64,000 bases of DNA from Candidatus Omnitrophota bacterium (GCA_041649175.1 JBAZNR010000001.1:719497-783496); one strand, 5' to 3'; numbered from the stretch's first letter, positions 1 through 14,319 are shown. The notes: generated by a model not told the origin, from the letters alone. Program-made: numbers and translations.

Positions 1-1659
1 ACTCAGAATATTGCAGAAAATACTATTTCTGGAATGTTTCATCTCCGTTCAGTTCCTGCCAGTCCGATCCAAGAGATAACCAGCGGTCAAGTGAATATCA
101 AAATTGTAACGCCCGCGGCTTATCCGCAATATGAAAGCCCTCAGGCTTTCTTTGTAGACGAGCCGTTGTGGATATTTCCACATGTGCGGATGGATGACGG
201 GAAAATATGTCCTCCAGATAGTCGTAGATGGTTTGAGAATCCGACTTTAAGAGGATTTTTGGAATATCTAAGCGAATTTTTAACAAAGGCCGCTGAGAAT
301 AATTTAGAAGCAAAAGAAGATTATTATGAATTGCCGCAGTTCCCGGTTGCTAAGCCATTTCATTTGGTTTTTGTTGAGAGAGATCCGCAAAGTTGGATTT
401 CTCGGACAGAATCTGTGATCGGTTTCTTCTCTTATGCTGTTGAGAACCAGTTAATTCAAATACGTAGGTTTAACATTGACCCAAAGGCCTTAAATTCTGA
501 TGAGAGATGCGGGATATATATTTGGTATAAGAAAGAGCCCGTGCTTAGATATAAAAGGCCGCCAATTTATTTTCGAGAACTGGCCGAGCTTTTGGAAAGC
601 GAAGGGTTATCCTTCGAAAATTTGGTTAGGGAGGGGATAAAACTATTACCAGAGAAGAAATTCATTGTTATCTTGGGGTTCCCGATTAAGGAAACCAATG
701 GTGGCCCGTTTAATGATATACACTGGCAATCTTTTTTGTTAGATATCTCTGCTTACTATCAAATTTCGAGAAAGCAGAGGAAGAAAAATAAGAAAAAGAA
801 GGTCGATTATAACCTTGCAGTGAGTGATTATAGAAAAGAAGTTGAGAATACAAAGGTCGAATATTTTAAATCACACGATTGTTCCCTTAGGTTTTTATAC
901 AGTAGAATTGGAGGGCAGTCCTCGGTAAATAATTGTGCTGTTTTTGGTTGCGGTGCAATTGGCAGTCATCTTTTAGTATTTTTGGCTAAATCTGGTATCG
1001 CAAGAATGATCGTATGTGATCATGAAACAATCGAAGCTGGCAATTTATGCAGGCATGCCTTACATTTCAGCAGTGTTGGAAAACTTAAGGCATCTGAAAT
1101 GGGCAAGGTGTTAAAAGATATTAATCCGTGGGGAGATTTCTCGGTTGCCTTGACAGATATTCTTAATCTGACATCAGATTCAAAAGAAATGCAACAGCTT
1201 TTGGAGTATGACCTGTGGATTGATGCCGGATTGCCGGTAAAAGCATCCCTGTATTTGGTGGATCTTGCCAAAAAACATTCGAAACGGATGGTTTCGGCTT
1301 TTATTACAAATAAAGCAAAATATTTAATTATTGCGATATCGGGAAAGAATTCTTCACCTGATATTAATGAAATATTGACGCAGATGCGGATTTATATGAG
1401 CAATAGCGATGATAGCGATCTCAAAGGGTGTCTTGCTTTGCTCGAATCCCCTGAAAAAGATATAGGAATTAGGCCGAATACAGGATGTTATTTTATGACA
1501 TTTGAGGCTTCGGAAGCAAGAATGTCCGCGACAACATCCATATTGTATTCTTGTTTAAATGAGTTGTGTGGGGATACTTTTGAGAAGGGTCGGTATTTAA
1601 TCTATGGTTATGATGATAAGCATTTTACTTATAAGATAATTTTGGATTCCGTAGTATGA
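1..1659 (+). CDS. E2-E1 fusion protein (UBC-like N-terminal domain + ThiF/MoeB-type E1 domain); Cap2-like; 5' end outside window (frame open to nt 1)
   Basis: N-terminal region has the UBC-like motif YPQYESPQAFF...FPHVRMDDGKICPPD with a putative catalytic Cys. A K-rich linker follows. C-terminal half carries the Rossmann/E1 signature VFGCGAIGSHLLVFLAKSGIARMIVCDHETIEAGNLCRH. No stop codon lies between nt 1 and the first ATG at 34. Confidence 0.7.
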   Translation, partial: TQNIAENTISGMFHLRSVPASPIQEITSGQVNIKIVTPAAYPQYESPQAFFVDEPLWIFPHVRMDDGKICPPDSRRWFENPTLRGFLEYLSEFLTKAAENNLEAKEDYYELPQFPVAKPFHLVFVERDPQSWISRTESVIGFFSYAVENQLIQIRRFNIDPKALNSDERCGIYIWYKKEPVLRYKRPPIYFRELAELLESEGLSFENLVREGIKLLPEKKFIVILGFPIKETNGGPFNDIHWQSFLLDISAYYQISRKQRKKNKKKKVDYNLAVSDYRKEVENTKVEYFKSHDCSLRFLYSRIGGQSSVNNCAVFGCGAIGSHLLVFLAKSGIARMIVCDHETIEAGNLCRHALHFSSVGKLKASEMGKVLKDINPWGDFSVALTDILNLTSDSKEMQQLLEYDLWIDAGLPVKASLYLVDLAKKHSKRMVSAFITNKAKYLIIAISGKNSSPDINEILTQMRIYMSNSDDSDLKGCLALLESPEKDIGIRPNTGCYFMTFEASEARMSATTSILYSCLNELCGDTFEKGRYLIYGYDDKHFTYKIILDSVV

Positions 1660-2162
1660 AAAATTGGATTGATCATAAATATGATTTATCGGTGATTATG
1701 CCGGATTCGATTTGGCAGAAGATGGCACGCTTATGTGAAGAATCTTATCCAAATGAATGCGGTGGGATATTGATTGGTGAGTATTCCGATGATTTGAAGA
1801 AGGCTAAGGTTAAAGATATCATGATCTCAAAGGGTAATTCTGGGAAAAGAATGAGTTTCTTGAGAGAGGCGAAAGAGGCGAATAGTTTTTTGAAGAAACT
1901 GTGGCGTATAGCATCAGGCACTAAGTATTTTATCGGTGAATGGCATTCACACCCTAATGGTGCCGGATATCCTAGCATTACTGATGATGCCGCTATGTTT
2001 CAGGTTGCAAAAAGAGATCAATGCGCTTGTAAGCGACCTGTGTTGATAATATTAAACGGTGGGCCTAAAGTTTGGAAATCGGAAAAATGTTGGGTATATC
2101 TTATGGAAGATGAAAGGATTGAATTAATTGCGATTACAGAAGGCATTTCAGGAATAGTTTGA
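1656..2162 (+). CDS. JAB/JAMM (MPN+) metallopeptidase, Cap3-like
   Basis: Perfect JAMM motif EWHSHPNGAGYPSITD (H-x-H-x7-S-x2-D) with an upstream Glu (NECGG). The start overlaps the preceding stop (ATGA), indicating translational coupling. Confidence 0.8.
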   Translation: MKNWIDHKYDLSVIMPDSIWQKMARLCEESYPNECGGILIGEYSDDLKKAKVKDIMISKGNSGKRMSFLREAKEANSFLKKLWRIASGTKYFIGEWHSHPNGAGYPSITDDAAMFQVAKRDQCACKRPVLIILNGGPKVWKSEKCWVYLMEDERIELIAITEGISGIV

Positions 2163-2178
2163 TTATGAGATCCGAGAT

Positions 2179-2607
2179 ATGGTTCTCGACACAATCATGG
2201 ATAATCCGCATGGTTCGGGAAGTTCGGAAATAAAACGAAATTTTTTGCTTATGATCCACGAAGTATTCAAGCCAAAACAATTATTCCGCGGCGGGCCAGA
2301 AAGTGCAATGCTCAAAGGCCTAACCGCTCTAGATGTCTTGAAATATGAGCAAGAGGAATTAGGCAATAAAGATGTTGTACCTGAACCCGGGATTGATTTG
2401 ACAAAGATAAAATCTGAAAATTTGGCATGGTTAACCGAGACGGAAGATCAGGCTAGAGAATATGGGGAGGCTTCTAAATCGGATTTAAAAGATTATCGGG
2501 TTATCGCTCGTGATTCTGAGGGCGGAGTATTGGTTGAGAAATTGAATGCGGAGAATAAGCCCGTTATTCTCCGCAAGATGAAAGCGGGTAGGGTAAGGTT
2601 TTCATAA
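2179..2607 (+). CDS. hypothetical 142-aa protein, co-operonic with E2-E1/JAB (16-nt gap); C-terminus ...VILRKMKAG-RVRFS
   Basis: ORF with ATG at 2179, no recognisable domain. Its last 60 nt contain a copy of the operator palindrome. Confidence 0.5.
   Translation: MVLDTIMDNPHGSGSSEIKRNFLLMIHEVFKPKQLFRGGPESAMLKGLTALDVLKYEQEELGNKDVVPEPGIDLTKIKSENLAWLTETEDQAREYGEASKSDLKDYRVIARDSEGGVLVEKLNAENKPVILRKMKAGRVRFS
2546..2576. promoter_or_regulatory. palindromic operator O1 (ATGCGGAGAATA-N7-TATTCTCCGCAA), inside 3' end of the 142-aa ORF
   Basis: 12-nt arms that are reverse complements (11/12) with a 7-nt spacer. Same architecture as O2/O3 upstream of fic. Confidence 0.5.
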
Positions 2608-2660
2608 ATAGATTTAAGTCTTAGTGAATAAACAACTTGTATAAAATAATCTGGTTAGTC

Positions 2661-2691
2661 TTGTCACAAAAATGCACGCTTTTTGTGACAA
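2661..2691. promoter_or_regulatory. 12-bp perfect inverted repeat TTGTCACAAAAA-N7-TTTTTGTGACAA (hairpin or distinct operator)
   Basis: Arms are exact reverse complements. Not followed by a U-run, so not a classic terminator. Confidence 0.4.
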
Positions 2692-2719
2692 TATCATCTG
2701 GAAATTTATAAATTGAGAC

Positions 2720-2748
2720 TTGTGTATGCGGAGAATATGTGTTATATT
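2720..2748 (+). promoter_or_regulatory. putative sigma70 promoter of fic (TTGTGT-17-TATATT)
   Basis: -35-like TTGTGT 2720-2725, 17-nt spacer, -10-like TATATT 2743-2748, about 60 nt upstream of the ATG at 2809. Overlapped by operator repeats. Confidence 0.4.
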
Positions 2749-2791
2749 CTACGCATAGTATGCGGAGATTAAGGCGTCTATTCTCCGCATA
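2725..2791. promoter_or_regulatory. two tandem 13-7-13 palindromic operators O2 (2725-2757) and O3 (2759-2791), core TATGCGGAGAATA / TATTCTCCGCATA
   Basis: Four copies of a 13-mer in alternating orientation, each pair separated by exactly 7 nt. They overlap the spacer, the -10 and the 5' UTR of fic. Confidence 0.6.
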
Positions 2792-2808
2792 GCATAAAGG
2801 AAAATTAA

Positions 2809-3954
2809 ATGAAATATATCCACCAATTAGATAACTGGCCAGCTTTCATATGGGATCATAAAGAGATTGCATCCATACTAGGGACTGTGCGCAATCGACA
2901 GGGACGTTTGATCGGCCGTATGGAAGCATTGGGTTTTTCTTTGCGTTCAGAGGCAATTTTACAGACACTTACTCTTGATGTTTTAAAAAGCAGTGAAATC
3001 GAAGGGGAGATCCTTGATCCTGCCAAAGTGCGATCATCCATTGCGCGAAGATTGGGCATGGATATTGGCGGACTTGTGCCTTCCGATCGTCATGTGGATG
3101 GTGTGGTGGAAATGATGCTCGATGCCACACAGAATTTTGATAAGCCCCTTACTCAAGATCGAATGTTTGGCTGGCATGCCAGTTTGTTCCCGACCGGACG
3201 TAGCGGAATGCATAAAATTACTGTTGGCGCTTGGCGCGACGATAGCCATGGCCCCATGAGAGTTGTATCCGGTCCTGTTGGCCGTGAGAAGGTGCATTAT
3301 GAAGCGCCGGAAGCCAGTCGTCTCAAAAGTGAAATGAAGGATTTTTTGAGCTGGTTTAATGGTTCGGCTTCGCTCACCACAGGTGGAACGAAGGATTTAG
3401 ATCCTGTGCTCAAAGCAGGTATTGCACATTTGTGGTTCGTGACGCTTCATCCCTTTGATGATGGCAATGGGCGTATCGCCCGGGCGATTGCTGATATGCA
3501 GCTGGCGCGTGCCGACGGTAGTCGGGAACGTTTTTACAGCATGTCGAATCAGATTCGTCATGAAAGAAATGAATATTATGATGTCCTTGAAAAGACACAG
3601 AAAAGTATCCATATCACAAAAGAGGGGATTGATATCACGGCGTGGCTGGTGTGGTTTCTGAACTGTTTGAGTCGGGCGCTGGATACAACTGAAAGTACAT
3701 TGTCCGGTGTGTTCAAGAAAGCCCGTTTTTGGGATTCTCTTCCTGTCGAATCCATTAACGAACGGCAGAAAATGATCATCAACAAGTTGTTTGACGGCTT
3801 TGAAGGTAAACTCACCACTTCAAAATGGGCGAAGATCACAAAGTGTTCGCAGGACACCGCTCATCGGGACATTCTTGATCTTGTTGAGAGAGGTATTCTC
3901 GTTAAGGATCCCGCTGGTGGACGCAGTACGAGCTATTCGTTGAAAGAGGCGTGA
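2809..3954 (+). CDS. Fic/DOC family protein (AMPylase-type) with N-terminal inhibitory-helix motif and C-terminal winged-helix domain
   Basis: Fic motif HPFDDGNGRIARA. N-terminal SSEIEG fits the (S/T)xxxE(G/N) inhibitory motif. About 80 C-terminal residues are typical of the wHTH found in this Fic subfamily. Confidence 0.85.
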   Translation: MKYIHQLDNWPAFIWDHKEIASILGTVRNRQGRLIGRMEALGFSLRSEAILQTLTLDVLKSSEIEGEILDPAKVRSSIARRLGMDIGGLVPSDRHVDGVVEMMLDATQNFDKPLTQDRMFGWHASLFPTGRSGMHKITVGAWRDDSHGPMRVVSGPVGREKVHYEAPEASRLKSEMKDFLSWFNGSASLTTGGTKDLDPVLKAGIAHLWFVTLHPFDDGNGRIARAIADMQLARADGSRERFYSMSNQIRHERNEYYDVLEKTQKSIHITKEGIDITAWLVWFLNCLSRALDTTESTLSGVFKKARFWDSLPVESINERQKMIINKLFDGFEGKLTTSKWAKITKCSQDTAHRDILDLVERGILVKDPAGGRSTSYSLKEA

Positions 3955-4110
3955 TCAATTCAGGATTGGCCCGTGCTAACACTGTGCTAACAAAATAGCC
4001 CGCACCTAGGGCAATCAGGCAGAAACACCATCAAGGCACAAATCGCGCAACTGATAACACCCCTAACAGTTATCAAAAACCAGCAAAAACCAGCAACAGC
4101 GTCGGAGCCT

Positions 4111-4155
4111 CTCATAACCTGAAGGTCTCGGGTTCAAATCCCGACCCCGCAACCA
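4111..4155 (+). other. 3' fragment of initiator tRNA-Met (anticodon loop CUCAUAA, AGGUC variable loop, T-arm, CCCCGCA-A-CCA); not a complete tRNA; putative att-site direct repeat
   Basis: T-arm TCGGG-TTCAAAT-CCCGA, acceptor 3' strand CCCCGCA with discriminator A and CCA, anticodon CAT. No complementary 5' acceptor strand or anticodon-stem 5' strand lies upstream, and homology breaks exactly at 4110/4111. Confidence 0.6.
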
Positions 4156-4167
4156 GTTTTCCTCATC

Positions 4168-4206
4168 AAAAAAACCTTTGCCTTCGGGCAAGGGTTTTTT
4201 GGTTTT
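4168..4206 (+). terminator. intrinsic (bidirectional) terminator: CCTTTGCC-TTCG-GGCAAGGG flanked by A7 and T6
   Basis: 8-bp GC-rich stem with a UUCG tetraloop, followed by TTTTTTGGTTTT. It sits immediately after the tRNA 3' end copy. Confidence 0.6.
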
Positions 4207-4224
4207 AAGAGGAAACTGGTTGCG

Positions 4225-4251
4225 CCCCTGTCCTTGGAAAAGGACAAGGGG
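4225..4251 (+). other. second stem-loop (10 bp with 1-nt bulge)
   Basis: CCCCTGTCCT...AGGACAAGGGG. No adjacent U-run, so function unclear. Confidence 0.3.
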
Positions 4252-4302
4252 CAAGGTACATTATCCCTCACCGCTTTTTTGATTTTATGTTAAAATAAAA
4301 AA

Positions 4303-4746
4303 ATGAAAATGGATCACTTCATAGAAGAAGCAATAAAAGAAGCGCAGATCGGTTTATCCGAAGGTGGTATTCCGATCGGAGCTGTGCTTGTCCATCAGGA
4401 TAAGATCATTGGGCGGGGCCATAATCGCCGGATACAAAAAAATAGCGCTATTCTTCATGGCGAAACAGATGCCCTTGAGAATGCGGGCCGTCAGAAAGCA
4501 AGTATTTATCGAGACTGCGTTATGTACACAACTCTTTCTCCGTGCATTATGTGTTCGGGGACAATTCTTCTGTACGGTATCCGTCAAGTTGTTGTTGGGG
4601 AAAATAGGAATTTCCTTGGGGCTGAAGACTTATTGAGGCAAAACGGAGTTATGGTTGATGTTTTGCAAAATGATAGATGTATTAAGATGATGGAATCGTT
4701 CATCAAAGAAAAGCCGATGCTTTGGAATGAAGATATCGGTAAATAA
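4303..4746 (+). CDS. cytosine deaminase, yeast FCY1-type (CMP/dCMP deaminase zinc-binding fold)
   Basis: HGE...LENAGR and TLSPCIMCSGTILLYGI...VVGENRNF closely match the Fcy1 active-site regions (HxE, PCxxC). Confidence 0.8.
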   Translation: MKMDHFIEEAIKEAQIGLSEGGIPIGAVLVHQDKIIGRGHNRRIQKNSAILHGETDALENAGRQKASIYRDCVMYTTLSPCIMCSGTILLYGIRQVVVGENRNFLGAEDLLRQNGVMVDVLQNDRCIKMMESFIKEKPMLWNEDIGK

Positions 4747-4839
4747 GATAATCTGCAAGAATAAGTTTAAAAGCCAATATAGATCTTTTGATGATTGGGC
4801 TCAATTACAGCGTATGAGTTTTATCGGCTTTAGTCCAAT

Positions 4840-6474
4840 ATGAATTCTGGGTTGAAAATCCTTCTTGTCGTCGGCTATTTGTGCATTTTTGGTATTTTAC
4901 TTAATTATGAAAATGCCTGGATGCATAATGAAGTAGCTGTGACAACGCAAAAATTCTTCGACGGACATCCCTCTTTTCTTGAGCGCGTTTCTCAATGTTT
5001 GAATTGGCAGATCTTTGAAGGGGAATATGGCGGAGTTCCCAATAGCCGTGCGCGCATCTTCTCTAATATATTCCAGACATTCAATATTCTATTTAGAAAC
5101 TGGATCTTTCAATTTATCCCCGTACATCCAAGTCTTTCTTTAACATGGATTGTTGTTTTGGTCCTATGCCCGTATTTTCTATACAAATTTATCAAAAATA
5201 TTACCGACGATAAGGCGATCGCGCTGATCACGGCATTTCTTTATATCATCAGCCCCGGCGCGCTCATATCGGTCATCATGTTGTTTCTTCCGGGCAAAGC
5301 TATTACCAACTTTTTTTGTATCTTTTGCCTTTATCTTGGATCAGTGATCGCAAGAAATATAGAAAAAGCCTCCTGCACATCTTTCAGGCGAGATTTTCTT
5401 TTTCTTGTCCTGATGATCATCGCTTCCTTATTCTTTGATGAATATTCACTGTTTATTTTTGTTCTCGTCCCTATTTTCTTCCCGGGGATTTTCCGGCAGC
5501 GCCAACAACGTGTTTTTACAACAATTTTATACTTACTGATCCCGGCTGTTTACTATTTTTCGCTCACGTTTTTCTTACCCCAACTTTATGCCTTCGCCGG
5601 TTATCCGGGATTTAATTTCTTTGCTTTTTCTGATCATATGGGGATCAGCCAGCGTCTGCCAAACATCGATGTATGGGCGATGATCGTTAACTTTATTCTT
5701 CTTTTGCATGATAATCTCTTGGCAGGTTTTAACGCGTATCTTAAGGATCCTTCTGTCAGTGTTCGCGTAACGCAGTTTTATTCTACGGCGAATGAGTTAA
5801 TTCATGGCGATAATATTCAACTGGGCTGGGATTTTATCAAAGATAAACACATCACTTTCTTTCAAATTCTTCACGGCATTTTTTCTTTTGCAATTCTTGC
5901 TGTCGGGGCGTGGGCCTTAGCGGGGAAATGGCGTGATAATCAAAATAAGAAATTACGGACATATTTCTTAAAATCCTTAATGGCTTTGGTTGGGTTTGTG
6001 ATATTTTTTAGCCTGCTTCATATGACGAGTAATATTTTAGCCGGCTGCGGATATTATGGGTCGTGTTTCAGCGTATTTTTTGCGATCACCGTTGGGTTGG
6101 GCTTAAAGTTTATGATGGATAAAACACCGTGGAAAAATGTCCTTATTTGCATTTTTCTGGCCAGCCTAATGGTCAATTCGTTTTATAATATCCGGATGCT
6201 GAATTATTCCTGGATAGCGCTGCATTACCGCCAGCGTTATTGGGAGCTATCGATGTGGCTTAATCAGTATCCGCTCCGGGAAATTTACGAAAAGCATTTT
6301 GTAAAGGCAAATTCTTCCAACTTAGAATATCCTTATAATTTAAAGAATAATTTTAAGATTACCTATGAGGCGTGGAGAAATCGGAAGGATCCCGGTATTT
6401 GCAAAATGATCATTTCCGCCGCGCCGCCGGAATTAAGAGGTTTTTTATTAGCCGAACTGCCCTATATTAAATAG
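4840..6474 (+). CDS. polytopic integral membrane protein, GT-C-like (putative glycosyltransferase)
   Basis: More than 10 predicted hydrophobic helices, no soluble domain. Resembles YfhO/ArnT-type membrane proteins. Confidence 0.55.
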   Translation: MNSGLKILLVVGYLCIFGILLNYENAWMHNEVAVTTQKFFDGHPSFLERVSQCLNWQIFEGEYGGVPNSRARIFSNIFQTFNILFRNWIFQFIPVHPSLSLTWIVVLVLCPYFLYKFIKNITDDKAIALITAFLYIISPGALISVIMLFLPGKAITNFFCIFCLYLGSVIARNIEKASCTSFRRDFLFLVLMIIASLFFDEYSLFIFVLVPIFFPGIFRQRQQRVFTTILYLLIPAVYYFSLTFFLPQLYAFAGYPGFNFFAFSDHMGISQRLPNIDVWAMIVNFILLLHDNLLAGFNAYLKDPSVSVRVTQFYSTANELIHGDNIQLGWDFIKDKHITFFQILHGIFSFAILAVGAWALAGKWRDNQNKKLRTYFLKSLMALVGFVIFFSLLHMTSNILAGCGYYGSCFSVFFAITVGLGLKFMMDKTPWKNVLICIFLASLMVNSFYNIRMLNYSWIALHYRQRYWELSMWLNQYPLREIYEKHFVKANSSNLEYPYNLKNNFKITYEAWRNRKDPGICKMIISAAPPELRGFLLAELPYIK

Positions 6475-6743
6475 TTTAAATACCAAAGGTTTTATTTTCT
6501 TTCTGTGACCGGAAAAACTAGATTCAGCGCATATTCATCATCATCTTTTTTACTCTATGTTAAAATGCGAATGGGATGAAGGGTAAAAAGATACGTGTCC
6601 CCGGAAAATATAACTTTTAATTAACAATTTAATCCGGCGCTTGACAGGCCTGGCAATTTGAATGGATGCTGACGTATTATTTACCGATATATTTTTTAAA
6701 TAAAAAAAGTAATTAAAACATTTAGAAAGGGATTGAGATAATT

Positions 6744-7274
6744 ATGAGGAAATTGCTAGTGTTGCTATTTTTATTGTTTATATTTGGTTGTGCTCAACCA
6801 CTGCCTCGTTTAAAGACTGTGGATCACGTTGATATCAAGCGCTATATGGGGCCTTGGTATGTTATTGCGTGTATCCCGACTTTTATTGAAACAAAAGCCT
6901 ATAATGCAATTGAAGAGTATCAAATCAACGCTGATGGCACCATCAACACGATTTTTACATTTCACCAAGGTGGATTTGATGGACCGCTTAAGAAATACAA
7001 TCCCCGTGGATTCATTGTTGATAAAGTCAACAACTCAACCTGGGGCATGCAGTTTGTCTGGCCGTTTAAAGCTGAGTTTCTGATAACATATCTAACGCCG
7101 GATTATAGCCAGACCGTGATCGGGCGCAATAAGCGCGATTATGTTTGGATCCAGGCGCGAGCGCCTCAAATTCCGGAACAAGATTATCAGCGCTTACTGA
7201 GCATTCTAAAAGAGCAAGGATATGATATTACCAAAATTCGCAAAGTACCTCAACGCTGGGGCGATAAGGAATGA
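6744..7274 (+). CDS. blc: bacterial lipocalin Blc (outer-membrane lipoprotein)
   Basis: Lipobox LFIFGC, lipocalin motif YMGPWYVIA, length 176 aa. Confidence 0.8.
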   Translation: MRKLLVLLFLLFIFGCAQPLPRLKTVDHVDIKRYMGPWYVIACIPTFIETKAYNAIEEYQINADGTINTIFTFHQGGFDGPLKKYNPRGFIVDKVNNSTWGMQFVWPFKAEFLITYLTPDYSQTVIGRNKRDYVWIQARAPQIPEQDYQRLLSILKEQGYDITKIRKVPQRWGDKE

Positions 7275-7349
7275 AAAGGATTTTAAACTCCGGGGATATG
7301 TTCTAATTTTTTTTCTCTACATCTAAAGTGCTAAAGCTGTTCCGATTTG

Positions 7350-7389
7350 CCTTGTGCGTCTGCGGTCGAAAAGCTGCAGACGCACAAGG
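7350..7389. promoter_or_regulatory. 14-bp perfect inverted repeat CCTTGTGCGTCTGC-N12-GCAGACGCACAAGG
   Basis: Exact reverse-complement arms. Lies 75 nt downstream of blc and about 190 nt upstream of nuoA. No U-run follows. Confidence 0.45.
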
Positions 7390-7400
7390 TGAATTAACTG

Positions 7401-7428
7401 TTGATTTTCCTCTTAAATACGCTATAAT
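7401..7428 (+). promoter_or_regulatory. putative sigma70 promoter of nuo operon (TTGATT-16-TATAAT)
   Basis: Consensus -10 TATAAT 7423-7428 and -35-like TTGATT 7401-7406. Confidence 0.4.
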
Positions 7429-7575
7429 TCAGCCGATATATAGCCTTTGTTCTTCTGCGAAGAGGTGTGCCAAAATCGCATCTTTTCTAAGAAATAACCA
7501 CAAGGCCTATTAAAATCAAACGAACTTAATCTGGACACAATTAAAAAAATCTGTTAGGATTGGAAAAATTTCCGT

Positions 7576-7935
7576 ATGCTTCCAGACTACATTTACATCA
7601 TATTTTACCTTATCCTCGGCGTTGTCTTCATCGCCGCGGCCTTTGTGGCGTCTTGGTTTCTGCGCCCCAGGCTTGGGGTTGAGGCGGTCAAGAATTCTCC
7701 TTATGAATGCGGAGAGATCGTTAAAGGCAACTCCCGGATCCAATTCAATGTCCGCTATTACCTGTTCGCTTTGATTTTCGTGATTTTTGACGTGGAAGTC
7801 TTATTTGTTATTCCCTGGGCGGTTGTTTTTAAGCAATTAGGAATGATCGCCTACGTTGAGATGATGATCTTTATTTTGATCCTGACCCTAGGATTAGTGT
7901 ACGCCTGGAAGAAAGGAGCCCTCGAATGGCAATAA
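7576..7935 (+). CDS. nuoA: NADH-quinone oxidoreductase subunit A
   Basis: ND3/NuoA family sequence and size (119 aa). Confidence 0.9.
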
Positions 7936-8537
7936 ATGATAAAGCAGCCGCGTTATCGGGAGAAAAGTTCATGGAAAAATTTCCCGGTGGAGAAGTTATA
8001 ATGACGAAAACCGAAGACCTTTTTAAATGGGCCAGAGGGTCTTCGATTTGGCCGCTCACCTTTGGGCTTTCTTGCTGTGCGATTGAAATGATGGCTACGG
8101 GTGCCTCTCGTTTTGACATTGATCGCTTAGGCTCAGGTGTGTTTCGCGCAAGTCCCCGTCAGTGCGACGTGATGATCGTTGCCGGAACCATTTGCGTTAA
8201 AATGGGCGATTGTATGAAAAAGCTCTACGCCCAAATGCCCGAGCCCAAATACGTGATCGCCATGGGCAACTGCGCCGTCGGAGGAGGGATTTTTTATCAC
8301 GATACGTATTCCGTGGTGCAGGGAACCGAACGATTAGGGATTCCGGTGGATGTGCACGTGATCGGTTGTCCGCCGCGCCCCGAAAACCTCTTAAACAGCA
8401 TTTTATTACTTAAACAAAAGATTGAAAGTCCCGAAGGATATAAACATCCTCCTTTAAATCCTGCTAATCCGAATATTGGCGGAGGATTGTTAAATAAGGA
8501 AAATCCTTCCGATAAAAAAGAAGAGAAGGCCTCTTAA
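7926..8537 (+). CDS. nuoB: NADH-quinone oxidoreductase subunit B
   Basis: CCAIEMM...GNCAVGGG...GCPPRPE motifs ligating cluster N2. Confidence 0.9.
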
Positions 8538-8540
8538 ATT

Positions 8541-9008
8541 ATGGATCTTGCGCCATTAACTCAAATTGTCCGCGGAAAATTTCCCGATTCAATCGTTGAA
8601 GAACAATCCACAGCCCTTGTCATCAAAAAGGAATTTTTGCTGAAAATTGCCGAATTCCTTAAAGGGGAAGAACTGTTATTTGAAAATATGCATTGCATTT
8701 CCGGCGTTGACCGCAAAGACAAAATTGAAGTTGTTTATCATCTGTATTCCTTTAAAAATCGATTTATGCTTACACTCAAGGTTTTTCTTCCGCGGGAAAA
8801 CCCCGAAGTAGAAACTTTAACAAAGTTTTGGCGCTCAGCCGATTGGTTGGAGCGGGAAGTTTTTGATCTATTCGGTGTGAAATTCTTAAATCATCCGGAT
8901 CCGCGCCGCATTCTTAATCCGGATGAATGGACGTATTATCCTTTAAGAAAAGATTTTACGCATCCCGAATTTTTTCCAAAGGCAGAAACACAAGGGCTTA
9001 AAGGGTAA
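8541..9008 (+). CDS. nuoC: NADH-quinone oxidoreductase subunit C
   Basis: 30-kDa subunit family, ERE.FDLFG motif. Confidence 0.85.
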   Translation: MDLAPLTQIVRGKFPDSIVEEQSTALVIKKEFLLKIAEFLKGEELLFENMHCISGVDRKDKIEVVYHLYSFKNRFMLTLKVFLPRENPEVETLTKFWRSADWLEREVFDLFGVKFLNHPDPRRILNPDEWTYYPLRKDFTHPEFFPKAETQGLKG

Positions 9009-9025
9009 CGCTTAAATATTTTAAA

Positions 9026-10153
9026 ATGAACGAACATTCTTTTGATCCTAAAGAACTTAAAGACGAAGAACTCATCGTTAACATGGGGCCTCAGCACCCC
9101 TCCACGCATGGGGTTCTTTATCTGGAGTTAAAACTTAACGGTGAGATTGTTTTAGATTGCCGTCCGCATATTGGTTATCTTCATCGCAGCTGCGAAAAGG
9201 TGGCCGAAAACCGCATGTATACGGCGTTTATTCCGTTTACCGACCGCCTTGATTATTTAGCGTCGATGAATAATAATTTGGGATATGTGATGGCGGTGGA
9301 AAAAAGCCTTAACCTTACGGTTAATCCGCGCGCGCAATATCTTCGCGTGATCATCGCGGAATTAAACCGTATCGGAAGTCATTTGGTTTCGACCGGAACT
9401 TTTGCTCAAGATCTTGGCGCCTACGCAACGGCGCTTTTTTATTGCTTCCGCGACCGCGAAAAGATCGTGGAATTATTCGATACCATTTGCGGAAGCCGTC
9501 TTACCTATAATTATATGCGCATTGGCGGCGTTCAAAATGATCTGCCTGCCGGCGGAGATAAGATCATCAAGGATTTTATTAAATATGAACGCAAAAAGTT
9601 GGATGAATATGATCAGCTTTTAACTTATAACGCGATTTTCTTAGCTCGGGCGAAAAAGGTTGGCGTTCTTTCAAAAGAAATGGCTATTAACTATAGCGTT
9701 TCCGGGCCTATTTTGCGCGCGGCGGGTGTTAAGTGGGACATTAGAAAAGAAGAACCGTACCTTGTTTATGATAAATTTGATTTTGATATTCCCACCGGAC
9801 AAAACGGCGATTCGTGGGATCGATATAAGGTAAGAATTGAAGAAATGCGCCAAAGTTTAAAGATCGTTGAGCAGGCTATTGGTGCTTTGCCCGAAGGAAA
9901 TCCTGTGGCTAAGGTCAATAAGGTTCATAAACCGGCCGCCGGAGAAACATATTTGCGAACAGAAAATCCCAAAGGCGAATTAGGTTTCTATATTGTGAGC
10001 GACGGATCGGAAAAGCCTTATCGGCTTAAAATACGCTCTCCATCTTTTTCTAATTTGGCGGTACTTCCTGAGCTTATTCGCGGGCTCAATGTTTCGGATG
10101 CGATTTGCGTTTTGGGAAGCATGGACTTTGTCATGGGGGAAATTGACCGATGA
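9026..10153 (+). CDS. nuoD: NADH-quinone oxidoreductase subunit D
   Basis: 49-kDa subunit family, 375 aa. Confidence 0.9.
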   Translation: MNEHSFDPKELKDEELIVNMGPQHPSTHGVLYLELKLNGEIVLDCRPHIGYLHRSCEKVAENRMYTAFIPFTDRLDYLASMNNNLGYVMAVEKSLNLTVNPRAQYLRVIIAELNRIGSHLVSTGTFAQDLGAYATALFYCFRDREKIVELFDTICGSRLTYNYMRIGGVQNDLPAGGDKIIKDFIKYERKKLDEYDQLLTYNAIFLARAKKVGVLSKEMAINYSVSGPILRAAGVKWDIRKEEPYLVYDKFDFDIPTGQNGDSWDRYKVRIEEMRQSLKIVEQAIGALPEGNPVAKVNKVHKPAAGETYLRTENPKGELGFYIVSDGSEKPYRLKIRSPSFSNLAVLPELIRGLNVSDAICVLGSMDFVMGEIDR

Positions 10154-11115
10154 TCGATCAAACATCAGCGCTTTTTACGATGATTTTAGGCGGGTCGGTT
10201 ATTTTAGGCTTCGTGGCGATTTCCGCGATGTTTTTGGTTTGGTGGGAAAGAAAAGTTTCAGCCGTTATTCAAAACCGTTTGGGGCCGATGGTGGTTGGCT
10301 GGCACGGGTCGCTTCAAACTGCCGCCGATATGCTCAAACTTTTGTTAAAAGAGAATATTGTTCCGTCGGGAGTTGACAAATTTTCCTGGTGGCTGGCGCC
10401 GTTTTTTGTGACGGTTCCGCCCATTATGGCTTTGGTCACGGTTCCGTTTAGCGATGTGCTGATCGCGCGCGATCTTAACGTCGGAGTTTTATTCTTAACA
10501 TCCGTGACTTCTGTTTGCGTTTTAGGAATTTTCATGGCCGGATGGGGCTCAAATAATAAATATTCGCTTTTAGGCGGCATGCGTTCGGCGGCGCAAATTA
10601 TCAGCTATGAAGTTCCACTGCTTCTTTCAATTGTGGTGGTGGTGATGGAAACCGGAACGCTTTCCATGCAGGAAATCGTCCGCGCTCAAGAACATTCCTG
10701 GCTTATTTTAAAACCTAATATGGCCATCGCTGCCCTGATCTATTTTATTTCTTCCACGGCGGAAGTGAACCGTGTGCCTTTCGATATTCCGGAAGCGGAA
10801 TCGGAATTGGGAGCAGGGTATCACACCGAATATACAGGAATGAAATTCGCCATGTTCTTCTTGGCGGAATACACCAATCTTTTTATTATCTCGGCGGTGT
10901 TGGCTGTTCTATTTTTAGGCGGCTGGCAAGGCCCGGTATTGCCGCCTTTGGCATGGTTTCTCATCAAAACATACGGCATTATTTTTGTTTCGATGTGGGT
11001 TCGATGGACTTTACCGCGAGTGCGGATGGACCAAATGATGGCGTTTGCCTGGAAATTCTTAACGCCGATCGCATTAGCGAATATTGTGGTGAGCGGTTGG
11101 CTCATGTTAAAGTAA
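10150..11115 (+). CDS. nuoH: NADH-quinone oxidoreductase subunit H
   Basis: ND1 family. Overlaps nuoD by 4 nt, and nuoEFG are absent between D and H. Confidence 0.9.
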   Translation: MIDQTSALFTMILGGSVILGFVAISAMFLVWWERKVSAVIQNRLGPMVVGWHGSLQTAADMLKLLLKENIVPSGVDKFSWWLAPFFVTVPPIMALVTVPFSDVLIARDLNVGVLFLTSVTSVCVLGIFMAGWGSNNKYSLLGGMRSAAQIISYEVPLLLSIVVVVMETGTLSMQEIVRAQEHSWLILKPNMAIAALIYFISSTAEVNRVPFDIPEAESELGAGYHTEYTGMKFAMFFLAEYTNLFIISAVLAVLFLGGWQGPVLPPLAWFLIKTYGIIFVSMWVRWTLPRVRMDQMMAFAWKFLTPIALANIVVSGWLMLK

Positions 11116-11136
11116 GCGATGAAGGGATAGATAGTT

Positions 11137-11610
11137 ATGTTTTTGCGTCTTAAATTTTTTGTTTTAAGTTTTGTCAGCATCTTGATCGGGCTTAAAGTTA
11201 CGATGCGTAATATTTTTGCTCCGGCGGTGACTTTGCAGTATCCGAAAGAAAAAAGGCCGATGGCGGAAAATTTCCGCGGCATGGTTGACCTTATTCCGGA
11301 AGATTGCGTTGTTTGTTATATGTGTATTAAGATCTGCCCGGTGGCCGCGCTTGATCTTACGCACAAACAAAGCTTAACGGCGGATAATAAAAAGAAATTG
11401 GATATTACCAAATTTACGTTTAACGGAGAACTTTGCTGTTTTTGCGGGCTGTGCGAAGAGATTTGCCCGACGGACGCGATCTATTTAAATAAGATGTATG
11501 AGGTTTCTGTTTTCTCACATGATGATGTTAATAATATTGACTTGATGAACGCGGAAAAATATAAGCATCTAGACAAGTACGATCTTACTAAATATACAAA
11601 GAAGGGTTAA
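11137..11610 (+). CDS. nuoI: NADH-quinone oxidoreductase subunit I
   Basis: Two CxxCxxCxxxCP 4Fe-4S motifs, and a TLQYP motif. Confidence 0.85.
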   Translation: MFLRLKFFVLSFVSILIGLKVTMRNIFAPAVTLQYPKEKRPMAENFRGMVDLIPEDCVVCYMCIKICPVAALDLTHKQSLTADNKKKLDITKFTFNGELCCFCGLCEEICPTDAIYLNKMYEVSVFSHDDVNNIDLMNAEKYKHLDKYDLTKYTKKG

Positions 11611-11618
11611 TTAAGCCT

Positions 11619-12107: not shown

Positions 12108-12116
12108 CAAATACTT

Positions 12117-12437
12117 ATGGTCCATATTAAAGAAATTTTAATTTTTTCCAGCATCTTGTTCGTCATCGGTATTTATGGCGCCTTAACACGGCGAAATACG
12201 TTCGGTATTTTGATGTCTATTGAACTTATCTTAAATAGCTGTTGTTTGAATTTTGTGGCGTTTATGCGCTATCATCAGTCGCCTTATTTTGCGTCTCCTT
12301 TATCGGGAGAAGTTTTTGTCCTTTTTATTATCGCCATCGCGGCGGCGGAAGTGGCGGTGGGTTTGGCGCTTCTTTTAGGTATTTATCGTCATTGTAAAAG
12401 CATTGCCAGTGATCATATCAATCTGATGAAAGGGTAA
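12117..12437 (+). CDS. nuoK: NADH-quinone oxidoreductase subunit K
   Basis: ND4L family, about 100 aa. Confidence 0.85.
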   Translation: MVHIKEILIFSSILFVIGIYGALTRRNTFGILMSIELILNSCCLNFVAFMRYHQSPYFASPLSGEVFVLFIIAIAAAEVAVGLALLLGIYRHCKSIASDHINLMKG

Positions 12438-14278: not shown

Positions 14279-14319
14279 GAGCAGGCTAAAGAAGAAAGAG
14301 TAGAAAGGCATTTGAAATT

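What the first reader, a model, noticed from the sequence alone, without database searches (positions are those of the whole stretch)
1..2162. Truncated E2-E1 fusion (Cap2-like) translationally coupled to a JAMM peptidase (Cap3-like): a bacterial ubiquitin-like conjugation/defence module cut by the window edge
The first ORF carries a UBC-type E2 signature (YP...P..FF...FPHVRMDDGKIC, i.e. HPN-like motif followed by a catalytic Cys) and, after a Lys-rich linker, a ThiF/MoeB E1 adenylation domain (VFGCGAIGSHLLVFLAKSGIARMIVCDHETIEAGNLCRH). The next ORF overlaps it by ATGA and has a complete JAMM metalloprotease motif (EWHSHPNGAGYPSITD). This E2-E1 + JAB pair is the arrangement of CBASS type II Cap2/Cap3 and of the fused-E1/E2 Bub/Bil-type anti-phage ubiquitination-like operons. 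The reading frame is open to nt 1, so the partner genes (CD-NTase and effector, or a Ubl/target) should lie immediately upstream, outside the window. Which family it belongs to cannot be decided from this window, and it may be an uncharacterised variant.
Basis: partly seen in the sequence, partly recalled or inferred. Interest (0 to 1): 0.8.

Follow-up and report, generated by a model that had tools for sequence, protein, structure and literature searches.

The report
Cap2/Cap3-like module regulating an MBL hydrolase

Summary
Window 1-1659 encodes residues 17-568 of an E2-linker-E1 fusion. Window 1656-2162 encodes a complete JAMM peptidase that overlaps it by ATGA.

The missing upstream DNA was recovered. 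A public contig is identical to window 1-1481 and extends it by 1,747 bp. NCBI protein accessions MFA5059534-38 from the same Candidatus Omnitrophota MAG are consecutive. The upstream genes are a 161-aa four-TM protein (PADLOC candidate PDC-M48A) and a 360-aa MBL-fold hydrolase. There is no CD-NTase and no Ubl, so this is not CBASS, Bil or Bub.

It is a split-gene, membrane-protein-associated variant of the MBL pathway (Iyer 2006 family 6a; the 6A-MBL anti-phage system). It scores well below NCBIfam's 6A-MBL cut-offs.

The strongest mechanistic clue is the MBL's disordered C-terminal tail, which ends ...FPNRFG. All 28 E2-E1-linked MBLs examined carry an aromatic-Gly or Ala end, often followed by a 1-7 aa extension. 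MBLs without an E2-E1 partner lack it. A true CBASS CD-NTase served by a related Cap2 ends ...PNREFA.

The MBL is therefore most likely the conjugated substrate, and the JAB trims or deconjugates it. I rate this a new variant of a known kind, of moderate interest.

The parts
1..1659 (+). E2-linker-E1 fusion gene (Cap2-like), codons 17-568 plus the stop codon. The first 16 codons lie upstream of the window.
   Evidence: ORF and translation. 100% identical to the 568-aa P0001 / MFA5059535.1. PADLOC E1-E2 7.4e-43. Foldseek top hit Cap2 7TO3_A, 1.1e-30.
1..327 (+). E2 (UBC-like, ATG3/ATG10-type) domain, residues 17 to about 125. Invariant His77 is at nt 181-183 and the predicted catalytic Cys86 at nt 208-210.
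   Evidence: The AF2 secondary structure shows helix, four strands, a loop and helix 99-114. His77 and Cys86 are invariant in the family. They are also invariant across CBASS Cap2 and 6A-MBL triple fusions.
328..882 (+). Cap2/ATG7-N-terminal-like linker domain, residues about 126-310. It includes the Lys/Arg-rich segment RKQRKKNKKKK at nt 769-810.
   Evidence: Precomputed Pfam PF26398 Cap2_linker on P0001 and homologues. The PADLOC and NCBIfam alignments span this region. R273, K274, R276 and K277 are nearly invariant.
883..1656 (+). ThiF/MoeB-type E1 adenylation domain, residues about 311-568. The GCGAIGS nucleotide loop is at nt 946-966. The crossover loop covers residues 500-518 (nt 1450-1506), with invariant Cys512 at nt 1486-1488.
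   Evidence: Pfam ThiF 3.7e-16. Invariant G332, C333, G334, G337, S338, D356, R367, D424 and C512. Loop 500-518 has pLDDT below 50, as expected for a flexible crossover loop. The GC motif aligns with the crossover-loop Cys of other Cap2-like proteins in 7 of 8 sequences.
1656..1659 (+). ATGA overlap: the JAB start codon overlaps the E2-E1 stop codon.
   Evidence: Sequence read directly. The same 4-nt overlap or near-abutting arrangement occurs in homologous loci.
1656..2162 (+). JAB/JAMM metallopeptidase (Cap3-like), 168 aa. Catalytic Glu34 is at nt 1755-1757. The HSHPNGAGYPSITD motif (H97, H99, S107, D110) is at nt 1944-1985.
   Evidence: Pfam Prok-JAB 1.9e-15. PADLOC JAB 6.4e-40. The NCBIfam 6A-MBL_cap2_3 JAB part scores 70 bits, above CBASS Cap3 at 47 bits. 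The catalytic residues are invariant in 9 homologues. The protein is NCBI MFA5059536.1.

Best explanation
The window starts 48 nt inside the third gene of a four-gene operon on the chromosome of a Candidatus Omnitrophota MAG. The gene order is: four-TM protein (161 aa, PADLOC candidate family PDC-M48A), MBL-fold phosphodiesterase/nuclease-like hydrolase (360 aa), Cap2-like E2-linker-E1 (568 aa), Cap3-like JAB peptidase (168 aa). It is a divergent, split-gene, membrane-protein-associated variant of the MBL pathway (Iyer et al. 2006 family 6a; the 6A-MBL anti-phage system). The layout mirrors type II CBASS (effector, CD-NTase, Cap2, Cap3), with the MBL in the CD-NTase position.

Proposed mechanism, all inferred:
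1. The E1 domain adenylates the C-terminal Gly360 of the MBL's disordered tail (...FPNRFG-COOH).
2. The tail passes as a thioester to Cys512 on the crossover loop and then to Cys86 of the E2 domain.
3. It is ligated to an amine on an unknown target, which primes or positions the hydrolase.
4. The JAB peptidase reverses the conjugates. In homologues whose MBL carries 1-7 residues after the Gly, it first exposes the Gly.

The TM protein is the MBL's usual partner even in systems with no E2-E1. It most likely acts as a membrane effector or anchor.

The operon's role is most likely anti-phage or anti-MGE defence.

What is shown here: gene content and order, conserved catalytic residues, predicted folds, and the tail signature with its correlation to E2-E1 presence.

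What is inferred: the chemistry, the target, the MBL's substrate and the defence role.
For: Recovery of the upstream genes:
- L084 matches window 1-1481 with 0 mismatches and adds 1,747 bp upstream. It carries the TM gene at L084:107-592, the MBL at 613-1695 and the E2-E1 start at 1700.
- The NCBI accessions MFA5059534 (MBL), -35, -36, -37 and -38 are consecutive on one 1,225,647-bp contig.
- The TM protein is WC676_02800 on the same contig.

Conserved operon:
- MBL-E2E1-JAB recurs in L002, L003, L005, L006, L007, L008/L010, L009 and L120.
- It also recurs in the nearest outgroup, L122.
- A TM protein lies directly upstream of the MBL in L002, L003, L005, L006, L007, L008/L010 and L120. In L009 a second MBL-like gene sits between them. 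In L122 a Csx27-like TM protein lies convergently downstream.

Cap2-like enzyme. The catalytic Cys and His residues are conserved across CBASS Cap2 and 6A-MBL fusions. The JAB catalytic set is invariant.

MBL partner:
- The HxHxDH and HHGS motifs are invariant.
- The AF2 model has pLDDT 83.7, with residues 337-360 disordered.
- The closest solved fold is the ComEC nuclease-type MBL domain 9ic4 (1.1e-16), followed by the Pce phosphodiesterase and RNase Z-like proteins.

Tail evidence:
- Gly360 is at least 90% conserved. About half of the family ends at it. The rest carry RRHVC, RRHV, KKYVR, MSHEC, Q, K, N or IIS after it.
- Loci passing both NCBIfam 6A-MBL cut-offs carry VG[FY]G plus 0-6 residues, or, in L088, end in ...KKWG.
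- After correcting for E2-E1 genes cut by contig ends, 28 of 28 E2-E1-linked MBLs have the aromatic-Gly or Ala end. Among MBLs with no adjacent E2-E1, 1 of 6 matches, by chance.
- A true CBASS CD-NTase next to a Cap2 that is 28% identical ends ...QRPNREFA. The window operon's MBL ends ...LFPNRFG.
- In L120 the E2-E1 is swapped for another Cap2 lineage (PADLOC PDLC00855, 552 bits) and the MBL tail changes to ...PNKPGRFA.

Defence context:
- L005 has SIR2-HerA and a type IIG RM directly upstream. L006 has an HmaC-like gene upstream. L085 has Dsr2 beside a TM+MBL pair.
- L090 is a prophage end. L003 lies next to a T4SS.
- A SoFic-like Fic gene lies downstream in the window.

Literature:
- Family 6a is defined as E2-E1-JAB plus MBL (PMC1779556).
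- The Cap2/Cap3 mechanism (bioRxiv 10.1101/2022.03.31.486616).
Against: - No biochemical step is demonstrated, and nothing here shows phage protection.
- Both proteins score far below NCBIfam's 6A-MBL equivalog cut-offs (152 against 320, and 65 against 220 bits). Function cannot be transferred by orthology.
- The E2-E1 is about as similar to a true CBASS Cap2 (135 bits) as to the nearest MBL-linked outgroup (147 bits).
- The tail correlation rests on related sequences, not independent events. The no-E2-E1 group is small.
- In this organism the MBL already ends at Gly, so a processing role for the JAB is not needed here.
- The MBL's substrate is unknown. The role of the TM protein is guesswork, and in L002 and L120 it could equally belong with a second, PDC-M48B-type MBL upstream.
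- The DNA further upstream of the TM gene in the source genome was not obtained.
Confidence: 0.72

Rival explanations
1. It is a type II CBASS. Cap2 and Cap3 regulate a CD-NTase that makes a cyclic-nucleotide signal for an effector.
For: PADLOC's CBASS-derived E1-E2 and JAB models hit strongly. The top structural match is CBASS Cap2. The gene layout parallels the true CBASS loci L123/L124.
Against: The two genes upstream are a TM protein and an MBL hydrolase, not a CD-NTase. No SMODS/DncV Pfam hit appears among the called genes of the related loci L002, L003 or L120. The control locus L123 shows one. The remaining 60 kb of the window was not scanned gene by gene for a CD-NTase.
Confidence: 0.03
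2. Two independent systems happen to sit side by side: a TM+MBL pair (PDC-M48-like) and an orphan E2-E1/JAB pair that modifies some other substrate.
For: TM+MBL pairs exist without E2-E1/JAB in L085, L086/L087 and L090. The TM family (1,591 hits) is far larger than the E2-E1 family (22 hits). Defence genes often cluster without interacting.
Against: The spacing is operon-like: 20 nt, 4 nt, then a 4-nt overlap. The order is conserved down to 38% E2-E1 identity and in the 30% outgroup. The aromatic-Gly/Ala tail is present only on E2-E1-linked MBLs. The tail co-varies with the E2-E1 lineage in L120. The tail resembles a CBASS CD-NTase tail.
Confidence: 0.1
3. It is a Bil- or Bub-type bacterial ubiquitination operon that conjugates a beta-grasp Ubl.
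For: E1, E2 and JAB activities are all encoded. BubCD and UBA5 appear among the weaker structural hits.
Against: E2 and E1 are fused in the Cap2/ATG7 manner. No Ubl gene lies upstream. The only small neighbour, the 142-aa ORF at 2179-2607, has no family hit and is absent from related operons. Cap2 outranks Bub structures by about 19 orders of magnitude in E-value.
Confidence: 0.02
4. The operon is not an immune system. It is a membrane-associated nucleic-acid or phosphodiester-processing module, for example uptake-linked DNA degradation like ComEC or envelope remodelling like Pce, whose enzyme is regulated by conjugation.
For: The closest solved folds are the ComEC MBL domain and the phosphorylcholine esterase Pce. 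The partner is a membrane protein. In this genome the operon lies beside housekeeping genes, including the nuo operon, a lipid A acyltransferase and RNase II.
Against: Relatives sit in defence islands, a prophage end and a conjugative element. The TM protein belongs to a PADLOC defence-candidate family. The related 6A-MBL system is reported as anti-phage. The family is patchy and rare, as expected for mobile accessory genes.
Confidence: 0.1
5. It is a plain ThiF/MoeB sulfur-carrier adenylyltransferase with an unrelated peptidase next to it.
For: NCBI annotates it as 'ThiF family adenylyltransferase'. ThiF and MoeB models give weak hits.
Against: All ThiF/MoeB hits fall far below their cut-offs and cover only residues about 311-480. 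An N-terminal E2 and a Cap2 linker are present. There is no ThiS or MoaD neighbour.
Confidence: 0.01

Closest known systems
6A-MBL anti-phage system / family 6a operons (Iyer, Burroughs & Aravind 2006, PMC1779556; NCBIfam NF058523 and NF058524; van den Berg et al. 2024, as cited in PMC11601596 and PMC13276650)
   Same: An MBL-fold enzyme sits directly upstream of Cap2-type E2-E1 and JAB activities. The E2 Cys/His, the E1 nucleotide loop and the crossover Cys are conserved. The MBL carries an aromatic-Gly C-terminal tail. These are the best NCBIfam hits for both proteins. A four-TM protein is often adjacent in bona fide members too: L017, L059, L080 and L088.
   Different: The JAB is a separate gene here, not the third module of one polypeptide. 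Both proteins score far below the equivalog cut-offs (152 against 320 and 65 against 220 bits), whereas control loci pass at 349-435 and 281-311 bits. E2-E1 identity to bona fide members is about 18%. A PDC-M48A TM gene is a fixed first gene of the operon in the closest clade.
Type II CBASS (effector, CD-NTase, Cap2, Cap3; Ledvina et al., bioRxiv 10.1101/2022.03.31.486616)
   Same: The E2-linker-E1 architecture and fold match, with Cap2 as the top hit. The JAB is a separate gene. The four-gene layout is the same, with a membrane protein first. The substrate has a disordered tail, and the tail motif resembles that of a real CD-NTase: PNREFA against PNRFG.
   Different: There is no CD-NTase. An MBL hydrolase occupies that position. 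No cyclic-nucleotide sensor domain was detected in the TM protein. This family's E2 keeps an invariant His 9 residues before the Cys.
PDC-M48 (PADLOC-DB v2 phage-defence candidate: M48A membrane protein plus M48B MBL)
   Same: The TM protein is a full-length M48A member (215.8 bits, positions 1-160 of 164). It is always adjacent to an MBL-fold gene, in 10 of 10 contexts examined.
   Different: The operon's MBL matches M48B only weakly (30.9 bits, N-terminal 76 residues) and has gained the conjugation tail. E2-E1 and JAB are added. No publication mentioning PDC-M48 was found.
Eukaryotic ATG7 / ATG3-ATG10 / ATG8-ATG12 conjugation. The comparison with ATG8 and ATG12 rests on my own knowledge of those proteins.
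   Same: ATG7 structures are the next-best full-length structural hits after Cap2. The catalytic Cys sits on the crossover loop. The substrate ends in aromatic-Gly, often followed by a short propeptide that a protease must remove, as in ATG8/LC3 (FG or YG plus extension, cut by ATG4).
   Different: The substrate is an enzyme's flexible tail, not a beta-grasp Ubl. E1 and E2 are fused. The protease is a JAMM metalloprotease, not a Cys protease. No lipid target has been shown.
Csx27 (type VI-B CRISPR accessory membrane protein)
   Same: The membrane proteins of the L008 and L017 operons hit Csx27 models (1.4e-9 and 1.7e-8). The window operon's TM protein hits weakly in its N-terminal hairpin (4.9e-4). 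A shared N-terminal Y-[DN]-x5-P-G motif is visible.
   Different: The profile-profile comparison is weak (probability 11%, 62 columns). There is no CRISPR context here. Homology is unproven.

Membership tests
Type II CBASS | A CD-NTase (SMODS / DncV-like nucleotidyltransferase) gene in the operon | tested here: not met
   The upstream genes are a TM protein and an MBL hydrolase. No SMODS hit appears among the called genes of L002, L003 or L120. The positive control L123/L124 shows SMODS plus DncV-like_NTFase.
Type II CBASS | A Cap2-type E2-linker-E1 fusion with an E2 Cys and a crossover-loop E1 Cys | tested here: met
   PADLOC E1-E2 7.4e-43. Cap2_linker Pfam. Foldseek Cap2 7TO3_A 1.1e-30. Cys86 and Cys512 are invariant.
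Type II CBASS | A Cap3-type JAB peptidase encoded next to Cap2 | tested here: met
   Prok-JAB 1.9e-15 and PADLOC JAB 6.4e-40. The JAMM residues are invariant. The score against NCBIfam CBASS Cap3 is only 46.8 bits, below the cut-off of 200.
Type II CBASS | An effector with a cyclic-nucleotide-sensing domain | tested here: inconclusive
   The only candidate is the four-TM protein. It matches PDC-M48A and weakly Csx27, and no CBASS effector model at E <= 0.01. Ligand binding cannot be assessed with these tools.
6A-MBL system / family 6a | An MBL-fold protein encoded next to the E2/E1/JAB activities | tested here: met
   The MBL is at L084:613-1695, 4 nt before the E2-E1 start. It is MFA5059534.1 'MBL fold metallo-hydrolase'. 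HxHxDH and HHGS are invariant.
6A-MBL system / family 6a | E2, E1 and JAB joined in one triple-module polypeptide (PMC1779556, Table 1 row 6a) | tested here: not met
   There is a stop codon at 1657-1659 and a separate JAB ORF from 1656. The same split occurs in all close relatives. Bona fide members are 694-1,166-aa fusions carrying a JAMM motif.
6A-MBL system / family 6a | Scores above the NCBIfam equivalog cut-offs (NF058523 at 320 bits, NF058524 at 220 bits) | tested here: not met
   The scores are 152.4 bits and 65 bits. The latter was measured on the 83%-identical L002 MBL. Control loci L015, L017, L027, L039 and L088 score 349-435 and 281-311 bits.
6A-MBL system / family 6a | Experimentally shown anti-phage activity | not testable with these tools
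   Only reported for P. aeruginosa 6A-MBL, in papers citing van den Berg 2024.
PDC-M48 (PADLOC candidate) | An M48A membrane protein | tested here: met
   PDLC04670 9.5e-65, 215.8 bits, residues 1-160 against positions 1-160 of 164.
PDC-M48 (PADLOC candidate) | An M48B-type MBL protein | tested here: inconclusive
   P0087 hits PDC-M48B at only 3.8e-8 (30.9 bits, N-terminal 76 residues). LmuA-type and RT-associated MBL models score higher. True M48B proteins score 340-533 bits (L002 MBL1 and the L086 MBL).
Bil / Bub ubiquitination-like operons | A beta-grasp Ubl gene, with E1 and E2 as separate proteins | tested here: not met
   E2 and E1 are fused. The upstream genes are the TM protein and the MBL. 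The downstream 142-aa ORF has no family hit and is not conserved in related operons.
ThiF/MoeB sulfur-carrier pathway | A ThiS/MoaD partner and a score above the ThiF/MoeB family cut-offs | tested here: not met
   All ThiF/MoeB NCBIfam hits score 20-52 bits against cut-offs of 152-647. No ThiS or MoaD gene lies in the operon.

The most novel reading that the evidence does not exclude
TM+MBL pairs (PADLOC candidate PDC-M48, more than 1,500 TM-protein relatives) may be a widespread, uncharacterised membrane-linked ComEC-like nuclease or phosphodiesterase module. The E2-E1/JAB cassette would then define its 'type II' form, as in CBASS and Pycsar. In that reading, 6A-MBL, this Omnitrophota operon and PDC-M48 are one system family. 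The membrane protein would be an overlooked core component.

The MBL tails look like ATG8/ATG12 ends: aromatic-Gly with a removable 1-7 aa propeptide. The ligase is ATG7/ATG3-like. The conjugation could therefore tether the hydrolase to the membrane, either to the TM partner's conserved Lys-rich loop or to a phosphatidylethanolamine amine. The JAB would act both as the maturing protease and as the off-switch.
Probability: 0.15. Interest if true: 0.8.

Novelty: new variant of a known kind. Interest (0 to 1): 0.5.

Why it matters
- Annotation. Pipelines that rely on Cap2/Cap3 (E1-E2, JAB) models would label this locus as a partial CBASS, and NCBI calls it 'ThiF family adenylyltransferase'. The real partner is an MBL hydrolase.
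- Portability of the cassette. The Cap2/Cap3 cassette appears to be a portable regulator that recognises a short C-terminal tail. Nearly the same tail (PN-R/K-x-F-G/A) is found on a CD-NTase and on an unrelated MBL enzyme. The tail changes when the Cap2 lineage is swapped. This gives a simple sequence rule for predicting which neighbour is the conjugated substrate in uncharacterised E2-E1 operons.
- Links between systems. The locus connects three items so far treated separately: the validated 6A-MBL system, the unpublished PADLOC candidate PDC-M48, and Csx27-like membrane proteins. It points to a membrane component for the MBL pathway, whose mechanism is unsolved.
- Testable role for the JAB. 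The post-Gly extensions in about half of the homologues predict a maturation role for the JAB, which has been described for Ubl precursors but not for Cap3.
- Host range. It places this machinery in Omnitrophota, an uncultured phylum.

Tried and rejected
- Exact-sequence look-ups of the window JAB and of P0001 found no contig on record. The upstream DNA came through the MBL cluster member P0087 instead. A further look-up through the TM protein gave the same 3.2-kb contig, so DNA upstream of the TM gene in the source genome was not obtained.
- The genome-contig scan returned only one short relative, L001.
- The metagenome scan did not contain the source contig, but gave 80 comparison loci.
- A tblastn search against plasmids found only a CBASS-like Deinococcus locus, with no 6A-MBL example.
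- Viral-contig scans found no member of this E2-E1 family, only distant ThiF-domain hits. They found one prophage-end MBL+TM pair.
- The primary 6A-MBL paper (van den Berg 2024) is not held. No paper mentions PDC-M48.
- Homology between the 161-aa TM family and the 216-252-aa Csx27-like TM proteins was tested. BLASTP found nothing. hhalign gave only an N-terminal match at 11% probability. I treat this as suggestive only.
- No tRNA was found in window 1-12000 and no Rfam family anywhere in the window. No integration site was identified.
- The promoter and terminator scan was no better than shuffled sequence.
- GC content of the first 2 kb is 38.7%, against about 43% elsewhere. This is too mild to argue for recent transfer.
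- Considered and rejected: CBASS, Bil/Bub and ThiF/MoeB (see rival explanations).


Full report
**1. Observation**

Frame 1 of the + strand is open from nt 1 to a TGA at 1657-1659. The next ORF starts with the ATG at 1656-1658, so the two genes overlap by ATGA.

However, an NCBI protein of 568 aa is 100% identical over the whole in-window part (P0001 = MFA5059535.1, 'ThiF family adenylyltransferase', Candidatus Omnitrophota MAG, contig of 1,225,647 bp). Only 16 residues are missing.

Domain assignments are robust:
- Pfam ThiF 3.7e-16 and Prok-JAB 1.9e-15.
- PADLOC E1-E2 7.4e-43 and JAB 6.4e-40.
- The best solved-structure sequence hit is Cap2 7TO3.
- An AlphaFold2 model built on 20 homologues (pLDDT 86) has Cap2 7TO3_A as its top Foldseek hit, E = 1.1e-30 over 637 columns. 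ATG7, MccB, BubCD and UBA5 follow.

The model shows three parts. An N-terminal UBC-like unit has a helix, four strands, a loop bearing His77 and Cys86, and a helix. A middle domain is flagged in the precomputed Pfam as Cap2_linker. The E1 Rossmann domain has a crossover loop (residues 500-518) that is disordered and carries the invariant Cys512.

The JAB has the full JAMM set (Glu34, His97, His99, Ser107, Asp110), invariant in nine homologues.

**2. What lies upstream**

Exact look-ups of the window proteins failed. A search with a homologous MBL protein and a cluster look-up then found P0087 = MFA5059534.1, 'MBL fold metallo-hydrolase'. It lies on the same 1,225,647-bp contig. Its accession directly precedes those of the E2-E1 (…35), the JAB (…36), the 142-aa ORF (…37, locus tag WC676_02820) and the Fic protein (…38).

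A Logan contig carrying exactly this MBL (L084, 3,228 bp) is identical to window 1-1481 with 0 mismatches. It extends the window 1,747 bp upstream. It holds:
- a 161-aa protein with four predicted TM segments (L084:107-592; NCBI WC676_02800 on the same contig);
- 20 nt later, the 360-aa MBL (613-1695);
- 4 nt later, the E2-E1 start (1700).

The operon is therefore TM, MBL, E2-E1, JAB. There is no CD-NTase and no Ubl.

**3. Comparative evidence**

The MBL-E2E1-JAB core recurs in every relative with enough flanking DNA:
- L002/L004 and L005 (83% E2-E1 identity), and L003 and L006 (about 60%), have a TM protein of the same family directly upstream of the MBL. So does L120, whose E2-E1 belongs to a different Cap2 lineage.
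- L007 (43%) and L008/L010 (38%) have a longer Csx27-like TM protein in the same position.
- L009 (37%) has a 160-aa membrane protein and a second MBL-like gene upstream of the core.

An exhaustive HMMER search of 1.84 billion cluster representatives shows the family is small. Four representatives score above 370 bits, then there is a gap to 147 bits. There are 13 hits at E <= 1e-30 and 2,183 at E <= 1e-3.

The nearest outgroup (P0218, 30% identity) is again MBL, split E2-E1, JAB, with a convergent Csx27-like membrane protein. The next one examined (P0220, 28%) is a genuine type II CBASS: a 242-aa membrane protein, a SMODS/DncV CD-NTase, Cap2 and Cap3. The E2-E1 alone therefore does not define the system. 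The partner enzyme does.

**4. Relation to 6A-MBL**

The best NCBIfam hits are 'anti-phage 6A-MBL system cap2_3 protein' and '6A-MBL system MBL-fold protein'. The scores are 152 bits (cut-off 320) and 65 bits (cut-off 220).

Control loci from the metagenome scan (L015, L017, L027, L039, L088) pass both cut-offs, at 349-435 and 281-311 bits. They have the classical architecture of Iyer et al. 2006 row 6a: an MBL followed by one E2-E1-JAB polypeptide of 694-790 aa.

His77, Cys86, the nucleotide loop, Asp356, Arg367 and Lys379 are invariant across CBASS Cap2, split MBL-linked Cap2 and 6A-MBL fusions. The crossover-loop Gly-Cys aligns in 7 of 8 sequences.

The window operon is thus a distant relative of 6A-MBL, not an equivalog. 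It uses the CBASS-style split of Cap2 and Cap3.

**5. The MBL as substrate**

The MBL family keeps HxHxDH, His183, Asp203 and the HHGS motif, so it should be catalytically active. Its model has pLDDT 83.7. It is closest to the ComEC nuclease-type MBL domain (9ic4, 1.1e-16), then to the Pce phosphorylcholine esterase and RNase Z/ELAC-like proteins. Residues 337-360 are disordered.

The tail ends in FPN[RK][FY]G, with Gly360 at least 90% conserved. About half of the family stops exactly at this Gly. The others continue for 1-5 residues (RRHVC, RRHV, RRHAH, KKYVR, MSHEC, IIS, Q, K, N).

Loci passing the 6A-MBL cut-offs show the same pattern: …VG[FY]G plus 0-6 residues, or, in L088, a …KKWG end. 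A third clade ends in Ala.

The survey needed one correction. In six loci the E2-E1 gene runs off the contig end, so it was not counted as adjacent. With that corrected, 28 of 28 E2-E1-linked MBLs carry the signature. MBLs with no adjacent E2-E1 (L085, L086, L090, the extra MBL of L009, and others) lack it, apart from one chance regex match. The PDC-M48B-type MBL1 of L002 also lacks it. These sequences are related, so this is a pattern and not a statistic.

Two further observations tie the tail to the ligase. First, the CD-NTase of the true CBASS locus L123 ends …QRPNREFA, close to the window operon's …LFPNRFG. Second, in L120 the E2-E1 has been replaced by a different Cap2 lineage (PADLOC PDLC00855, 552 bits; Pfam E2-E1mid), and the otherwise 75%-identical MBL ends …PNKPGRFA.

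In CBASS, Cap2 adenylates the CD-NTase C-terminus and conjugates it, and Cap3 cleaves exactly after the C-terminal residue. By analogy, the MBL tail is the E1 substrate. The JAB would reverse conjugation and, where an extension exists, expose the Gly. [quoted passage not shown] I have not seen the tail/propeptide pattern described, but I could not read the primary 6A-MBL paper.

**6. The membrane protein**

The 161-aa protein is a full-length member of PADLOC candidate family PDC-M48A (9.5e-65). It has a weak N-terminal match to Csx27 (4.9e-4).

Its family is large (1,591 hits at E <= 0.01) and unusually conserved, with 74% mean column identity across Omnitrophota, Planctomycetes and Patescibacteria. 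Many polar residues are invariant.

In all ten distinct contexts examined it is adjacent to an MBL-fold gene:
- with E2-E1/JAB in L084, L002, L003, L005, L006 and L120;
- with a PDC-M48B MBL and no E2-E1/JAB in L086/L087 (7.9e-161) and L085;
- in the prophage end L090;
- next to a bona fide 6A-MBL operon in L088.

Other bona fide 6A-MBL loci have a 216-252-aa protein with three or four TM segments directly downstream. The L017 one matches Csx27 at 1.7e-8. Homology between the short and long TM families is only weakly supported.

The picture resembles CBASS type I versus type II. A TM+MBL pair is the basic module, and E2-E1/JAB is an add-on that comes with a tail on the enzyme. What the TM protein does (pore, anchor or conjugation target) is unknown.

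**7. Context and likely role**

Relatives lie in defence islands or mobile elements:
- L005 has SNF2/DrmD-like, type IIG RM and SIR2-HerA genes (535 and 842 bits) directly upstream.
- L006 has an HmaC-like ATPase upstream.
- L085 has Dsr2 (1,424 bits) beside the TM+MBL pair.
- L003 lies next to a T4SS, L002 next to a transposase, and L090 next to a prophage integrase.

In the window, the operon is followed by a 142-aa ORF of unknown function and a DUF4172-Fic-wHTH protein resembling SoFic (PADLOC 2.1e-41, but NCBIfam 42 bits against a cut-off of 550). Housekeeping genes follow: a deaminase, a lipocalin, the nuo operon, a lipid A acyltransferase and RNase II.

6A-MBL is listed among anti-phage and jumbo-phage defence systems of P. 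aeruginosa. Defence is therefore the most likely role, but this is inferred.

**8. Verdict**

It is wrong about the partners.

The locus is a new variant of a known kind: an MBL-pathway operon with split Cap2 and Cap3 and a PDC-M48A membrane protein.

The most useful by-products are the tail rule, the propeptide pattern and the link between PDC-M48, Csx27-like proteins and 6A-MBL. I score interest at 0.5.

The most novel reading not excluded is ATG8-like tethering of the hydrolase to the membrane or to its TM partner. I give it about 15%. The ATG8/ATG12 comparison rests on my own knowledge of those proteins, not on a test run here.

Noticed in passing
window 2809-3954 (+): A DUF4172-Fic-wHTH protein lies 650 bp downstream of the JAB gene. 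It matches PADLOC SoFic over its full length (2.1e-41) but scores only 42 bits on NCBIfam SoFic (cut-off 550). It may form a small defence cluster with the operon, or it may be an ordinary Fic protein.
   Followed up: partly
window 2179-2607 (+): A 142-aa ORF starts 17 nt after the JAB stop (MFA5059537.1, WC676_02820). It has no Pfam, PADLOC or NCBIfam hit. Its 90% cluster holds 20 mostly shorter Omnitrophota proteins. It is absent from the related operons, so it is probably not part of the system.
   Followed up: partly
L002 1234-6118 and L120 1454-6401: A five-gene form recurs: a PDC-M48B-type MBL (about 340 bits), the TM protein, the tailed MBL, E2-E1 and JAB. The membrane protein is thus flanked by two different MBLs. 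The upstream neighbours differ (a NucS-like 355-aa protein in L002, Lipase_3 in L120).
   Followed up: partly
L120 3068-6401: The E2-E1 here belongs to a different Cap2 lineage (Pfam E2-E1mid; PADLOC PDLC00855, 552 bits) than in the window. The MBL is 75% identical to the L005 MBL used as search query, but its tail is changed to ...PNKPGRFA. This looks like cassette exchange with co-adaptation of the tail.
   Followed up: partly
L084 107-592; alignment A3: The PDC-M48A membrane protein is much more conserved than its partners. The L088 copy is 64% identical, while the adjacent E2-E1 is about 18% identical and the MBLs barely align. The family has 1,591 relatives. The reason for this constraint is unexplained.
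   Followed up: partly
L090 5014-6522 (IMG/VR contig, 95.9 kb): An MBL (320 aa) plus a PDC-M48A-like TM protein (177 aa) sits next to a tyrosine integrase at a prophage end. There is no E2-E1/JAB and no conjugation tail.
   Followed up: no
L018, L024, L025, L037 (E2-E1-JAB ORFs of 1,131-1,166 aa): Some 6a-type fusions are about 400 residues longer than the usual 690-790 aa. The JAMM motif sits near residue 690, so an extra C-terminal domain of unknown nature follows the JAB.
   Followed up: no
window 4840-6474 (+): A 544-aa polytopic membrane protein has no Pfam hit at E <= 1e-5. It lies between a cytidine/deoxycytidylate-type deaminase (4303-4746) and a lipocalin (6744-7274).
   Followed up: no
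window 7576-17306 (+): An NADH:quinone oxidoreductase (nuo) gene cluster includes NuoA-, NuoD-, NuoH-, NuoL- and NuoM-like genes. A lipid A acyltransferase (17350-18291) and an RNase II (18413-19885) follow. This shows the operon sits in the chromosome next to core genes.
   Followed up: partly
window 1-64000: No Rfam family reaches its gathering score anywhere in the 64-kb window. No tRNA was found in the first 12 kb. Nearly all large ORFs are on the + strand.
   Followed up: no
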